Source of the DNA: Octopus vulgaris
Lineage: Eukaryota
Length of the DNA stretch: 64,000 bases
Direction of reading: 5' to 3'
Assembly: GCA_951406725.2 (NCBI GenBank)
Contig: OX597820.1
Span: 24,242,001 to 24,306,000, forward strand
Positions 4,740 to 55,140 of this stretch are shown piece by piece. Every line of letters begins with the position of its first letter. Position 1 is the stretch's first letter. The notes beneath the pieces are model-generated. The model saw only the letters and a program-made list of their open reading frames with translations, searched no databases and was not told the DNA's origin. Position numbers and translations under genes: made by a program.

Positions 4740-5146
4740 TATTTCTTATTTCTTTATTGCCACAAGTGGCTAAACAAGGACAGACAAAGGGATTAGGTCG
4801 GTTACCTCGACCCCAGAGCGTAACTAGTACTTAATTTATCAACCCTGAAAGGATGAAAAGCAAAGTCTACCCCGGCGGAATTTGAACTCAGAACGTAAAC
4901 GCAGACGAAATACCTATTTCTTTACTACCCACAAGGGGCTAAACACAGAGGGGACAAACAAGGACAGACAAACGAATTAAGTCGATTATATCGACCCCAG
5001 TGCGTAACTGGTACTTACTTAATCGACCCCGAAAGGATGAAAGGCAAAGTCGACCTCGACGGAATTTGAACTCAGAACGTAGCGACAGACGAAATACTGC
5101 TTAGCATTTCGCTAGGCGTGCTAACGATTCTGCCAGTTTGATGCCT
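4740..5146 (-). mobile_element. tRNA-derived SINE family A, tandem dimer
   Basis: Two head-to-tail units with B-box GAGTTCAAATTCC and central GCCTTTCATCCTTTCGGGGTCGAT..AAGTACCAG domain; tail ..GTGGGTAGTAAAGAAATA. Confidence 0.9.
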
Positions 5147-5386
5147 TTTTATTTCTTGCCTTTTTTTCGACTGCCGCCATGCTACTGGCACAGTCTTCAA
5201 GGTTTCAGCTGATCATATTCATATCAAACTCAGTAATTATTCCGGTTTAGTAATATTATAGCGATCTTATGGAAGATATTGGGCCTTGATCAAGAACATG
5301 GGTTTTTAACTTGTGTAAACACCAACTCACCCACACAGATTCACATACACTTAATTTTAGCTAGCGTACATACCGATTCAGACAGG

Positions 5387-36579: not shown

Positions 36580-37240
36580 TACTTCGAGAACGAAAGTGGT
36601 TGTGGGGGGTGGTTAGTCAATCATATAGACCCCAGTACCTGACTGGTACTTAATTAATCGACCCCGAAAAGATAAAAAGCAAAGTAGACCTCGACGGAAT
36701 TTGAACTCAAAACGTAGCGACAGGTGAAATGCCACTAAGTATTTCGTCCAGTGCGCTAACATTTCTTATTTCTTTACTGTCCACAAGGGGCCACACACCA
36801 AGGGGACAAACAAGGACAGACACACGGATTAAGTCGATTACATCGACTCCAGTGCGTAACTGGTACTTAATTTACCGACCTCGAAAGGATGAAAGGCAAA
36901 GTCGACCTCGGCGGATTTGAACTCAGAACGTAGCGGCAGATGAAATAACGCTAAGCATTTCGCCCGGCGTGCTAACGTTTCGGCCAGCTTGCCGCCTTAA
37001 CTGGTGTTAAAATAAGAGAAGACATGAAAGCGGAGATCTGGCAGAATCGTTATCACGCCGGACAAAATGCTTAGCGGCATTTCGTCCGTCTTTACGTTCT
37101 GAGTTCAAATTCCGCTGCAGTCGACTTTGTCTTTCATCTTTTCAAGGTTGATAAAATAAGTTCTGTATGAATACTGGGGTCGAAGTAATCGACATATCCC
37201 TCCCTTGAAACTGCTGGCCTTGTGTCAAAATTTGAAATAA
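36580..37240. mobile_element. SINE A dimer (-, 36580-36997) head-to-head with SINE A (+, 37030-37240)
   Basis: Family A motifs in opposite orientations about 30 bp apart. Confidence 0.88.
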
Positions 37241-38507: not shown

Positions 38508-39047
38508 CATCATCATTGTTCGACCGTGGTCGAGACAATGGAATTTACCATGCTACGCCAGACTTCACGGTCCATCATGGTATTACGGAGGTCCTGTTGC
38601 TGGATGCCTGTATCCCTGGAGATTACATCAGGGTAGGAGAGTGTGCGCCCTCTGGTATTGCGAGTAGATGGCTTCCAGAGGAGAAGAGTAGAAATTACTT
38701 CTTTTTCAGCTCTACAACAATGTCCAGCAAACTGGACTCTCCTACCTTTCACAAGAGATGACACAGGTGGTAGTTTCTCATATATTTGCATTTTGGTTGG
38801 ATGGTGCTTCCACGAGAGATTTTGAGCTCTCATAAGGAGGCGAGTGTAGGTTCCATCCAACCGCCTCTCAAGCTTCTTTGATAACGTCCAGGTTTCTGAG
38901 CCATATAGTAGAATTTGTTCAACTGTGGCTTTGAAGATTTCAAGTTTGAAGTCTCTACTTAGATTTGATGACCAGATCTTATGCATATCATTACGGGCTG
39001 ACCAGGCCATACCCTTTCTATGGCCTGGTCAGCCTGTAATGACATGC
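38508..39047 (-). mobile_element. 5'-truncated RTE-clade LINE (RT C-terminal ORF 38513-39010) with TSD
   Basis: LLYGSETWTL..FAGHCCR..DREVWR motifs and (TGA)n tail. TSD ATAACATTGAT at 38497-38507 and 39048-39058. Confidence 0.92.
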
Positions 39048-42512: not shown

Positions 42513-42555
42513 TTGAACGATATTTCGACAGCTAACCTGTCTTTGTCAAGTTCAA
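42513..42555 (-). ncRNA. Minimal type I hammerhead ribozyme, U3-A8 core variant
   Basis: TTGAAC-TTGACAA-A-GACAG[GTTAG]CTGTC-GAAA-T-ATC-GTTCAA: perfect 6-bp stem I, 5-bp stem II, palindromic AUAU stem III, AUC triplet. Confidence 0.72.
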
Positions 42556-42589
42556 AATGAAAAGTGATACACAGAAATTCATAATTATA

Positions 42590-43155
42590 TTGGGTTGTCC
42601 GGGAAGTTCATGTCGATTTTTAAAGGAAAGAAAAAGGTCAATAAATACTTGCCATTACATTTTTAATCAACCAAATATGAACCATGTTGTTGCACAATGC
42701 GTCTCCATCTTTCCTTTAACTTGAAAATACTCTCTTCCCAGAAGTGAGGTGGTTTCATGGCAAAGAATTCATCAAGGTATCTTTTTACGTCATCCAAGGA
42801 ATTGAAATTTTTACCATTAAGACTATTCTGCAGAGACCTGAATAAGTGGAAATCCGAAGGAGCAATATCTGGTGAATATTGAGGGTGGGGTAACACATCC
42901 CAGCCGAGCTGCAGCAATTTTTGTCTGGTTCCCAATGCATTAAGTGCTGAAAAGGAACTTTCTTATCTTCCATTTTAAAGGGTTACAAAATTAAAACCAG
43001 TTATAGGAACATAAACCTTCTTCCACGAAAAGATAACTTAAACTGTGCTCTAAATGGAGGTGTAGTCAAATCCTATTTTATGAACTCAACCATGTTCTAA
43101 AATAAGTCGAAATGTAAGCTACTATAAATCGGCACGAACTTTCCGGACAACCCAA
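42590..43155 (-). mobile_element. Internally deleted mariner transposon (transposase C-terminus 42663-42935)
   Basis: About 30-bp TIRs TTGGGTTGTCCGG.AAGTTC.TG.CGATTT with TA TSDs; HPQYSPDIAPSDFHLF motif. Confidence 0.95.
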
Positions 43156-43811
43156 TAGAAATTCAAATCCAAAATTTGAACGAGGCAACCAGCGTTTCCC
43201 CACATTGATGGAATGACATCATCAGTCTTCAATTTCCAAGTTTACAACTGGCAAAAAGAAAAAGAAAGAAACAAACGAAAAACAGAAAAGAAGAAAGAAA
43301 AGGAAAAAGAATATTTAATCAAACAGCTTTGTGCAAATATGATGAAATTCCACTGTCATTTTATTCATCCTCTAGGGCGTAATGTTAATTACTCATAAAC
43401 ATATATCTGTGGTATTTTGAGCAGTGAAAGTGTAGCAGATTCAGAATATTGTCTGAAAATATGCACTTTCAAGTCTTTTCAAAATTGCAGCCGTTTGATG
43501 TAAAACGTTCGACAAATCCTGTCGAATTACTGTTATTGTGACTGACGTCATATCTGCGTCTATTGAATTTTTTGTTTAATTGTTCTGTTATACAAGCAAC
43601 ATAAATTGTATGACTTCATTAAACAAAAGATTCCTTTTACTCTCTGCCTTTATTTCTCTTTTTCTCTATCACATGACTTTGTAAATGATCAACCTGGTGT
43701 GTTTAATTTTAATGACCTACCAATGTATACAGTGCGTTTCTCTGCCCTAAGTGTAAGAAAGCAACTCGGCAAGAGATGGAAAGAAGATAATAATGAAAAT
43801 TATAATAATAA

Positions 43812-44707: not shown

Positions 44708-45261
44708 GCCCTGATGCAGTACCAGGCAGAGGCCCTCATGGCTTCTGATCTTAACTGATTAGAAGTGTTATCATGTACATTGTTTTGTCTTGGTATAAAA
44801 GATGGGCTACAGCAAATATTCTGCTCAATAGCACAGATTTGCTTGTCAGTTGTGTGACCTTAACCAGTTGAGCATGTCCCTTAGTGGCTGACGATATGTG
44901 CATCTCTGATCACGAGCAGAAGCAGTGGGGGAGCATCATAGCCATGTGTTGAGAGGAATTCTTTGGGGTTTGAATAATTCACCTCTGGAAACATGGCTGT
45001 TTCGTTTAACATCCTTAAACAATCCTTATTCAGGGACCTTTTGAGCAGGATGGGCTACTCGACCTGAAGAAAATTCTAACTGGGCCCCACCTGCAAGGTC
45101 ATGTGCTGTTTGTCTTGATATGAGATCACCATGTTGCGCACATATGTTTGTGATGCATGTGCCTGGTGTACCCTTATCAGACGGGTGGTCAAGATGGGTA
45201 TACTGGGCTTCGTATATTTTACCCCAGTGTCACTTTGATGGCATGCAATGCTCTCTCACTC

Positions 45262-45263
<2 letters not shown>
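44706..45263 (+). mobile_element. Same TAA-embedded repeat (copy 2)
   Basis: See 43812-44325. Confidence 0.75.
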
Positions 45264-45301
<38 letters not shown>

Positions 45302-46279: not shown

Positions 46280-47010
46280 CAAGCAATAACAAATCACCAA
46301 AATGTTTCAAGTAGTGCCTTCTCCTGTGACTCAAAGAGACAATACTCTCTTTAGAATGCTAGCTGTACCTAACAATGCTGCCTTCTGGACCACATCGAGC
46401 TTGACAGCAGCTCCAATATTCTTACAATTCTTTAACCGCTCCTAATGCTCCAATTACCACCGGTATCACCATTATTTTCCTCATGCTCCATAACTTTTCT
46501 ATCTCGTCCCGCAGTGGCTGGTGTTTCTCAATCTTTTCTATTCCCTTACATTTCACCCTCGAATCACCAGGGATTGTAACATCTATTATCTTTACTTCTT
46601 TATCATCTTTATGGATGAGCACAACATCTAGTCGGCTCGCCTCTATGACTTAGTCACAGTGCATGTTAAAATCCCAAAGTATGGTTGCCTCCTCATTTTT
46701 TGTGACCTCTTCTGGAGTGTGCCTATACCATCTTTTTTCTGTTGCTATTCCAGAGTGTTGGCATAGCTTCCTGTGTATATAGGTCCCACGTCTATTGTGT
46801 CTGTGAATATATTTCTTCTTAACCAGGACTGGGCAGCCAGAGGCAATATGATTTATTGTTTCTTCTTTTCATTTTGTGTTTTTGGTGATTTCTGGTGGGA
46901 AGGCTTTGATCTTGGGCTGCAAATAAAAATCCTCCAGTCTCTTCTTTGGGTCTTGATATTCTCAGCCATTGCTGGGGTTTTCTTTGTCTCTTTCTTAATA
47001 CTTTATTATT
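46280..47010 (-). mobile_element. R4/Dong-like RLE LINE fragment
   Basis: ETGGFLFAAQDQSLPTRN, IIDVTIPGD..EKIEK..LW..IPVVIGALG and QKAALLGTASIL motifs. Confidence 0.85.
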
Positions 47011-53353: not shown

Positions 53354-54040
53354 TGACCAAACGAACGTCTTACTCTTCTCCAAACAGAAGTATTTGCTTC
53401 CAGCATTATTTTCTGGTATTCAAACTGAAAAGTAATCCTATGCTCTTAGCTGTCTCTCTTTTCCATCTACCTGTCCACTTGGTTCTTTGTAATGCTACTT
53501 AATGTCAGTGACTTGAGGTAACACACCATTGATAGCGTTCTCTTGTTTTCTAATTTCTACTAATTTACACATTGAAACATTGCGTCTGAAGTTTATCTGT
53601 CAATGCGTCTGTACTGAAGTATTAGGCTTTCTTACTTCTGTACAAGGTTAATGTTTCGTAATGTAAGTTAGCCGGTGGTGTGGGAGATAAAGCGGTCTAT
53701 TGACTGTTTCTTATTTTATTTATGAACCTTTGAGTGGTGAAGGGCAAAGATTAATTTCGGTAGGTTGAAATGATAGAATTGAAGGAGCCGCAGAGTAACA
53801 TGTATTACGAAATTGTTTTATATTTCTTTTTTCTCTTTTTCCATTCGTCGTTGGAGTTCATATGGATTCTGATATAAGTTTTGGCTTCTATAATTTCCAC
53901 TGAAATAACTCCACGTTTTATAATGAAGCTAATATAACCGAAGTTAATGGCCACACACAACAAAATTTTTTCTGTTACTTTAAAAAAAACAGTAGGATGT
54001 CGACAAGCGAACCACTCACCCAACTAGAAGTAACTGCAAA

Positions 54041-54460
54041 GGCGGCGAGCTGGCAGAAACGTTAGCACGCCGGGCGAAATTCTTAGCAGTATTTCGTCTG
54101 CTGTTACGTTCTGAGTTCAAATTCCGCCGAGGTCGACTTTGCCTTTCATCCTTTCGGAGTCGATAAAATAAGTACCAGATACGCACTGGGGTTGATATAA
54201 TCGATTTAATCCGTGTGTCTGTCCTTGTTTGTCCTCTCTGTGTTCAGCCCCTTGTGGGTAGTAAAGAAATAGGTATTTCGTCCATCTTTACGTTCTGAGT
54301 TCAAATTCCACCGTGGTCTACTTTGCCTTTCTTACTTTCGGGGTCGATAAATTAAGTACCAGTTACGCACTGGGGTCGATGTAATCAACTTAATGTCCTT
54401 GTTTGTCTGTCCTTGTTTTTCTCCTCTATGTTTAACCCCTTGTGGGTAATAAAGAAACAG
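54041..54460 (+). mobile_element. SINE family A tandem dimer
   Basis: Full head unit followed by a second unit beginning at GGTATTTCG. Confidence 0.92.
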
Positions 54461-55140
54461 GTATGTATATACGATAGAGAAATTGGTACCTCCATTTCTG
54501 AGTTTGAAATTTCGTTAAAGTCATTCATGGCTTAATAACCTCGGAGGGCATATAAAACAACAAAATAAGAACCCAGCAAACAGACTGCAGACCGATCTAG
54601 TATACTAAAAGTTCGCCCAACGAAAATGTCTCATGTACCAAAGGAACAAAAGCAAAAGGTCTCCAGAGACTCATTATGGCAATCAAAACTCAAACATGGT
54701 TTTCTGTTGCATTTTGGGATAACTTGAATATTCATATAATCAGTTTTAATTTCCGTTTTGGTTTTTTTTTTTTCCATTGTTTCGTTTGAGAGTATCATAA
54801 TAGTGGTGGAGGTGGCAATGTTGTTGATCTCATGACCTATATTACGATTGAACCGAAATTATTAACCATGATGCCACGCAAGTTAGAGAATTCATTATAA
54901 AAGATGGGTGAAATGTTATAAACTCTTTGATGTTACTGCTTAAGGGAATTAGAATTATTTTGACAGTACAAAATGGTACATACAAGCATGTATTGACAAC
55001 TGCACACGTATGCATACATACATACATATATACATACATACATATATACATACATACATACATACATACATACGTATATACATACATGCATACAAACATA
55101 TATATATTTATAGATACATGCATATATTCATACATACACA

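What the first reader, a model, noticed from the sequence alone, without database searches (positions are those of the whole stretch)
42513..42555. Intact mini-hammerhead with compensatory U3-A8 catalytic-core pair
The core reads UUGACAA instead of CUGANGA. Both partners of the established C3-G8 tertiary Watson-Crick pair have changed together (U3-A8), while stems I (6 bp) and II (5 bp) are perfect. Stem III is the loopless palindrome AUAU, which can only form in a dimer. Standard CUGANGA searches would miss it. The double change points to selection for function rather than decay (inference).
Basis: partly seen in the sequence, partly recalled or inferred. Interest (0 to 1): 0.75.

Follow-up and report, generated by a model that had tools for sequence, protein, structure and literature searches.

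The report
Known hammerhead variant in dead retrotransposon
This 43-base motif has the layout of a minimal self-cutting RNA (hammerhead) and sits at the end of a broken Penelope-type jumping gene; its U-A core pair is a published variant shared by hundreds of copies, this lone copy is likely inert, and older copies in the genome likely record the steps by which the pair changed.

Summary
The motif is real (0 hits in 9.6 Mb of shuffles). It lies 3' of the GIY-YIG remnant of a truncated Penelope-like element (PLE) that a mariner insertion later split. U3-A8 is inherited from the source element (88 of 100 listed copies). It is not new: PMC4209133 reports it in about 1,300 Schistosoma PLE hammerheads, and this scan noted it before (18 notes, at least 6 genomes, this one included). 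This copy's subfamily mostly reads UCGACAA, so its U4 is likely CpG decay. Copies decay neutrally, and this one has no partner in the window, so selection acted on source elements, not on this locus. The added value is a dated series of subfamilies: C3-G8, then U3·G8, then U3-A8 with C4, then U3-A8 with U4. Stems and catalytic bases stay nearly fixed while loop II drifts. That U3·G8 is the direct intermediate is compatible with the data but not proven. Cleavage was not tested. New member of a known kind; interest 0.3.

The parts
42513..42555 (-). Type-I minimal hammerhead motif: stem I 6 bp, core with U3-A8, extra A at 9.1, stem II 5 bp, loopless AUAU palindrome, AUC triplet (predicted cut between 42519 and 42518)
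   Evidence: Sequence and fold; descriptor against shuffles
42542..42549 (-). Core positions 3-9 plus extra A. U3 (42549) and A8 (42544) are family-wide; U4 (42548) is likely a CpG change from the subfamily's C4
42477..42589 (-). 3' piece of the Penelope-like element copy (end of the 3' untranslated region / pseudo-LTR holding the hammerhead); ends about 40 nt after the cut site, against a T run
   Evidence: About 90% identity to the best family copies
42590..43155 (-). Mariner-type DNA transposon remnant inserted into the element; terminal inverted repeats, TA duplicated at 42588-42589 and 43156-43157; transposase C-terminal remnant at 42663-42959
   Evidence: Sequence; phmmer to Mos1 transposase E 4.7e-23; no Pfam hit
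43158..43620 (-). Upstream piece of the same element: rest of the 3' untranslated region, family stop codon position at 43317-43315, frameshifted GIY-YIG endonuclease remnant (43606-43374); 5'-truncated near 43620
   Evidence: tblastn with an open relative, E 8e-16 and 4e-8; that relative hits Pfam GIY-YIG above cut-off; DNA matches at 80-85%

Best explanation
The motif is the minimal hammerhead carried in the terminal repeat of a Penelope-like retrotransposon family, its U3-A8 pair is shared by most copies, and it likely worked as a slow, dimer- or protein-assisted self-cutting RNA in the source elements but is likely inert at this locus. [quoted passage not shown] Inferred: two hammerheads in one tandem transcript pair through AUAU to form stem III and cut after C17; U3-A8 replaces C3-G8; purifying selection acted on the replicating source elements, which passed through C3-G8, U3·G8 and U3-A8 states while position 4 switched between C and U. 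This copy is a truncated, mariner-split, roughly 6%-diverged relic whose U4 likely arose by CpG deamination after insertion.
For: PLE identity: Pfam GIY-YIG on L042, RVT_1 on L109 E 9e-9, DKG-type motif and Cys-containing linker in translations. Tandem layout: same-strand upstream hammerhead in 2 of 20 long loci, ATG 114 nt past the cut site in both. Two 3'-end classes at +50-59 (43 of 111) and +90 or more (59 of 111) match the PLE tail (PMC8557442, PMC11167929). Covariation; 3-8 states by flank-defined group a1 CG 14 of 20, a2 CG 23 and UG 10 of 35, b0 UA 18 of 19, b UA 44 of 46, c UA 23 of 28. Ladder tree built without hammerhead and CpG columns; divergence falls a1 0.226, a2C 0.134, a2U 0.113, b0 0.091, b 0.077, c 0.051. 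Over six steps between group majorities: loop II 9 changes in 30 site-steps, 3' paired/core half 5 in 114 (Fisher p 0.0002; against flank rate 0.10, p 0.018), none in G5, A6, A9, G12, A13, A14, A15.1, U16.1. CpG origin of U4: same-loop copies TCG 11, TCA 3, TTG 4 incl. this one, other 2, of 20; TCG 50, TTG 18, TCA 21 of 100.
Against: No cleavage was measured. The nearest-neighbour energy of the hammerhead dimer (-18.8) is worse than two monomers (2 x -11.3) and than an unrelated cofold (-26.8 kcal/mol). C4 is reported to lower activity considerably (PMC3088659), yet subfamily b amplified with it. Insertions were copied from RNA not cut at this site, and in the anole PLE cleavage was not needed for insertion in vitro and no reads ended at the cut site (PMC11167929). 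The 5' stems of most a-group copies were fixed by my search patterns, so only the 3' half is a fair conservation test there. Groups are cuts of a ladder with modest support, and majorities at CpG sites are ambiguous. The youngest subfamily has U4 as its source state (97 of 100 listed), so U4 here could come from such a source, though this copy is 6.5% from group b and 14.7% from group c.
Confidence: 0.72

Rival explanations
1. The source elements kept the fold for a non-catalytic reason (a protein-binding or template-positioning structure), and cleavage was lost or negligible from the U3·G8 or C4 stage on.
For: C4, U3·G8 and G10.1·U11.1 states all amplified. Insertions derive from uncut RNA. 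The dimer is not favoured in energy. Catalytic mutants of the anole PLE hammerhead still insert in vitro (PMC11167929). PMC4209133 itself leaves non-cleavage functions open.
Against: The 3-8 pair was restored to Watson-Crick and has no known role outside catalysis (established knowledge). All unpaired catalytic bases are unchanged across six steps while loop II changed 9 times. Fixed CpG changes in the motif go only in the tolerated direction (U4, U11.1), never to A5 or A12.
Confidence: 0.2
2. This particular copy is a host-selected, working ribozyme.
For: All conserved positions are intact here, and U4 matches the canonical core.
Against: 10 of 46 sampled subfamily copies are equally intact. 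U4 is the expected CpG product. The element is truncated and split by a mariner. There is no second hammerhead in 64 kb.
Confidence: 0.04
3. The conservation reflects protein-coding constraint (ORF overlapping the motif, as in the anole PLE) or chance likeness to a hammerhead.
For: Changes at 4, 11.1 and the first loop base fall at third positions of one frame; in the anole element the ORF starts inside the hammerhead (PMC11167929).
Against: In tandem copies the ATG lies 114 nt downstream of the cut site. Each of the three frames through the motif has a stop in at least some group majorities (read from the rows). Chance: 0 hits in 9.6 Mb.
Confidence: 0.03

Closest known systems
Minimal type-I hammerheads (min-HHR) of metazoan Penelope-like elements, U3-A8 variant of Schistosoma mansoni Cercyon elements (Cervera and De la Pena 2014, PMC4209133)
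   Same: No stem III, palindromic 15.2-16.2, extra nucleotide between 9 and 10.1, G10.1-C11.1, position in the terminal repeat, mostly solitary or inverted copies, U3-A8 core (about 1,300 hits; the supplement lists UUGAUAAA and UUGAAAAA cores, and a CUGAAGAA relative in S. japonicum).
   Different: Different host and element family; stem I 6 bp and stem II 5 bp; subfamily b carries C4; a dated series including a U3·G8 subfamily is resolved here.
Natural U3-A8 and U4C hammerhead variants (Perreault et al. 2011, PMC3088659)
   Same: C3-G8 covaries to U3-A8 in several natural ribozymes and is active in vitro; U4C occurs in a viroid and is tolerated in vivo.
   Different: Those have a full stem III; the passages I read do not describe U3, C4 and A8 together.
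Hammerhead of the anole Poseidon element PAc (PMC11167929)
   Same: PLE hammerhead upstream of two reverse-transcription start sites that define the tail; depends on the 3-8 pair; uncut RNA is the insertion template.
   Different: C3-G8 core; ORF starts inside the hammerhead there and 114 nt past the cut site here; PAc is Penelope/Poseidon clade, whereas this family has a Cys-containing RT-EN linker.
Neptune/Nematis-type EN+ PLEs (PMC8557442)
   Same: RT plus C-terminal GIY-YIG, Zn-finger-like linker, microsatellite targets, tail, inverted 5' copies.
   Different: Linker spacing is C-x11-CxxC in the majority, not CX2-5CxxC; an N-terminal Ulp1/C48-like stretch and a 2A-like motif precede the RT; clade not placed by a tree.

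Membership tests
PLE minimal hammerhead (PMC4209133) | Catalytic boxes with a Watson-Crick 3-8 pair, G5 A6 A9, G12 A13 A14, A15.1-U16.1, H17 | tested here: met
   U3-A8 and all listed bases present
PLE minimal hammerhead (PMC4209133) | Stems I and II; G10.1-C11.1; extra base between 9 and 10.1 | tested here: met
   6 bp and 5 bp; extra A at 42542
PLE minimal hammerhead (PMC4209133) | No stem III; palindromic 15.2-16.2 | tested here: met
   AUAU at 42523-42520; unchanged in all group majorities
PLE minimal hammerhead (PMC4209133) | Located in the terminal repeat of a PLE | tested here: met
   GIY-YIG remnant upstream; upstream and downstream copies in L255 and L269
PLE minimal hammerhead (PMC4209133) | Self-cleavage as a dimer | not testable with these tools
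   Only folding energies, which do not favour the dimer and ignore tertiary contacts
Rfam hammerhead families | Match to a covariance model | tested here: not met
   No hammerhead model among 7 hits at E<=10; none among the 150 of 346 hits listed for the window
EN+ Penelope-like element | RT with PLE motifs followed by C-terminal GIY-YIG | tested here: met
EN+ Penelope-like element | Partial tandems, inverted 5' copies, optional 3' tail, microsatellite targets | tested here: met
   25 of 26 two-motif loci are opposite-strand; two end classes; 85 of 111 ends are followed by a trinucleotide repeat; tandem copies
Neptune/Nematis clade | CX2-5CxxC linker and RT phylogeny | tested here: inconclusive
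   CxxC present with a further Cys 11 residues upstream; no reference RTs on hand for a tree

The most novel reading that the evidence does not exclude
The dated copies of this one family record a ribozyme core changing in replicating elements step by step, C3-G8 to a U3·G8 wobble to U3-A8, with position 4 switching between C and U more than once. PLE hammerheads would then tolerate cores that cripple canonical hammerheads, probably because the element's protein assists folding, and each natural stage can be assayed as a short RNA.
Probability: 0.4. Interest if true: 0.55.

Novelty: new member of a known kind. Interest (0 to 1): 0.3.

Why it matters
The motif itself adds a host and a family to a published variant. 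What could matter is the series. PMC4209133 left open why PLE hammerheads vary so much within a genome and whether they cut. Here the variation resolves into successive source elements in which loop II drifts, stems and catalytic bases hold, and the 3-8 pair is swapped, apparently through a wobble. That turns the open question into a small set of natural RNAs to assay.

Tried and rejected
Rfam scans: only microsatellite-driven miRNA hits among the 150 of 346 listed for the window, nothing relevant locally. No tRNA. A protein search with an a-type GIY-YIG returned mostly the younger subfamilies, so it gave no unbiased a-type set. Expression: no RNA holder listed. Contigs of four runs laid on the locus mostly pile up other family copies; they show C4 in part of the depth and list no other letter at positions 3 or 8, but they do not give the orthologous locus in another species. 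An alternative helix hiding the core in UCGA copies was considered; the predicted fold stays hammerhead-like in all 7 group majorities. The pooled TG/CA skew inside versus outside the motif is confounded by sites where TG is the source state; only the restricted a2C comparison (30:7 against 32:24, p 0.024) is used. U3·G8 copies are not closer to group b0 than C3-G8 copies at diagnostic columns (44 of 294 against 88 of 585), so direct ancestry is not shown. Pfam and PDB sequence searches did not name the protease-like stretch. Lunse et al. 2017 on dimeric PLE hammerheads is not held; it may already describe C4 or U3·G8 variants. An earlier-findings look-up by sequence returned nothing.

Full report
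OBSERVATION. On the minus strand, 42555..42513 has a 6-bp stem I, the core U3 U4 G5 A6 C7 A8 A9, an extra A (42542), a 5-bp stem II opening with G10.1-C11.1, G12 A13 A14, the loopless palindrome AUAU and C17 at 42519. Rfam does not detect it.

CONTEXT. The motif lies in a dispersed repeat: 43 matches from 40 scored of 1,829 candidates, and at least 520 plus 63 exact pattern matches. Upstream, across a 566-bp mariner remnant with a TA duplication (Mos1 E 4.7e-23), lie the rest of the 3' untranslated region and a frameshifted GIY-YIG remnant. Relatives carry an open GIY-YIG domain (Pfam) and an RT (RVT_1). In 2 of 20 long loci a same-strand upstream hammerhead and tail run into the ORF, with the ATG 114 nt past the cut site; their downstream hammerheads lie about 5.0 and 3.9 kb on (with places). 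Of 111 younger copies measured, 43 end 50-59 nt and 59 end 90 nt or more past the cut site, the PLE tail pattern. This is an EN+ Penelope-like element. The window copy is 5'-truncated, split and solitary. Earlier notes of this scan call the genome an octopus; I did not test that.

THE FAMILY CORE. Counts from pattern listings are my hand counts of the rows shown. With the core left free and b-type flanks (100 of 102 listed): U3-A8 88, U3-G8 4, U3-U8 1, C3-G8 3, C3-A8 2, A3 2. Positions 3-5 read TCG 50, TTG 18, TCA 21, TTA 2, other 9. Near-equal TTG and TCA is the mark of CpG decay from a C4 source. Copies with this copy's loop type give TCG 11, TCA 3, TTG 4 (this one included), other 2, of 20. 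The next older loop type gives TTG 8, TCG 7, TCA 6, other 3, of 24. Relatives chosen by the upstream piece alone also mostly read UCGACAA. So U3-A8 is inherited and U4 is likely a later change. Copies lose G5 (7 of 46) and G12 (11 of 46) freely; 10 of 46 remain intact, in a sample partly chosen for hammerhead likeness. Intactness here is therefore no sign of selection on this locus.

A DATED SERIES. With G8 fixed there are 63 matches: C3 39, U3 19, other 5; 2 of the C3 rows have unrelated flanks. With A8 fixed, 95 of the first 100 of 520 have U3. Trees built without hammerhead and CpG columns (113 of 199 rows; 142 of 185 rows; short or gapped rows dropped) form a ladder. Assigning 179 of 196 distinct copies to groups by flanks gives: a1, C3-G8 with C4 likely (4-5 reads CG 6, TG 10, CA 2 of 20); a2, C3-G8 23 and U3 12 (10 with G8); b0, b, b2 and c0, U3-A8 with C4 (c0 mixed); c, U3-A8 with U4. 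Leave-one-out divergence falls 0.226, 0.134 (a2 C3), 0.113 (a2 U3), 0.091, 0.077, 0.069, 0.051. The window copy is nearest b (6.5%; c 14.7%; a2 20.1%). In the youngest loop type U4 is the source state (97 of 100 listed of 160; no TCA) and U11.1 follows (87 of 100), so the core seen in the window did also replicate, in a later subfamily.

THE WOBBLE STAGE. With a-type loops and a free core, 7 of 17 a-type rows have U3 (22 rows, 5 b-type set aside) against a 10% background C-to-T rate (p 0.0008). U3 goes with the undecayed loop (6 of 7 against 1 of 10, p 0.004). U3 copies keep 19 of 27 flank CpGs against 11 of 52 for C3 copies. They therefore come from a separate, probably later source with U3·G8. 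Against reading it as the direct ancestor of b: these copies share no more b0 states than C3 copies do (44 of 294 against 88 of 585), their non-CpG divergence does not differ significantly from C3 copies (p 0.17), their CpG retention is as high as in b and c, and CpG retention may also depend on local methylation (inference). The path C-G, U·G, U-A is compatible with the data, not proven.

SELECTION ON SOURCE ELEMENTS. Across six steps between group majorities the flanks change at 0.10 per site-step, loop II at 9 of 30, and the 3' paired/core half at 5 of 114, all five keeping pairing or an H17 and four of them at CpG-ambiguous sites (Fisher p 0.0002; binomial against flanks p 0.018). G5, A6, A9, G12, A13, A14, A15.1 and U16.1 never change. 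The 5' stems of most a-group copies were fixed by my patterns and are not counted. Coding constraint is excluded by the ATG position and by stops.

MECHANISM. Shown: anatomy, placement, covariation, tail. From the literature: min-HHRs cut weakly and only as dimers or with an extended stem III (PMC4209133); the anole PLE hammerhead needs the 3-8 pair and the element's protein, and uncut RNA is the main insertion template (PMC11167929); U3-A8 is active and U4C is impaired but tolerated in a viroid (PMC3088659). Inferred: in tandem transcripts two motifs pair through AUAU and cut after C17 slowly, likely with protein help. The dimer is not favoured by nearest-neighbour energy (-18.8 against 2 x -11.3), which fits weak activity but also the structure-only rival.

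WHAT IS KNOWN. U3-A8 in PLE minimal hammerheads, the extra base and the palindrome are all in PMC4209133 (read: parts 1 and 2 of 4; passages of supplement file 2, file 1 not searched). Other papers: PMC3088659 (passages and section 8); PMC8557442 (passages); PMC11167929, PMC6765202, PMC7151607, PMC6155905, PMC4640811, PMC3212892 (passages); bioRxiv 2026.07.22.740005 (one passage; supplements closed); bioRxiv 2026.09.24.754024 (search listing only). Lunse et al. 2017 was seen only as a reference. Searches for a stepwise G-U path in retroelement ribozymes, for C4 variants and for octopus PLE hammerheads found no such report in the held library, which lacks most subscription papers. The scan itself holds 18 notes on this kind in at least 6 genomes, including this genome and a U3-C4-A8 core elsewhere. 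Hammerhead numbering, the DKG and mariner motif names and the CpG-decay reasoning are recalled knowledge.

VERDICT. A real motif and a new member of a known kind, likely inert at this locus. Interest 0.3, resting on the dated series rather than on the U3-A8 pair.

Noticed in passing
L269:1215-1712 (+); L253-L272: The family's ORF holds a Ulp1/Peptidase_C48-like stretch (His, Asp, Gln and Cys motifs) upstream of the RT: Atlas feature score 0.97, 28 of 30 hits with that family (39% of members in the top cluster); no Pfam or PDB sequence hit. Present in 20 of 20 long loci, which were selected by a query overlapping it, and with RT-side sequence in 19. Ulp1-like domains are reported for NeSL, Utopia and Crypton; one search and passages of three papers showed none for PLEs.
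   Followed up: partly
L269:647-859 (+); L253, L254, L255: The ORF begins with a hydrophobic stretch ending in a 2A-like motif (SVEPNPGP in 3 of the 4 loci where it was recovered). It has Ser where the D(V/I)ExNPGP consensus has Asp, so ribosome skipping is uncertain.
   Followed up: partly
window 42590-43155: 566-bp mariner remnant with inverted repeats and TA duplication; its family is far more abundant than the PLE in the four runs laid.
   Followed up: partly
window 38513-39028 (-), 46422-46868 (-), 45026-45266: Fragments that look like other non-LTR retrotransposons (RT C-terminus; restriction-like endonuclease region), judged by eye.
   Followed up: no
family-wide: Position 4 appears to switch C, U, C, U along the series, and the youngest subfamily fixed a G10.1·U11.1 wobble after U4.
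   Followed up: partly
window, many sites such as 4772-5147, 36596-37204, 54036-54464: A different, very abundant short repeat, often in inverted pairs, matches the flanks of family loci; not identified.
   Followed up: no
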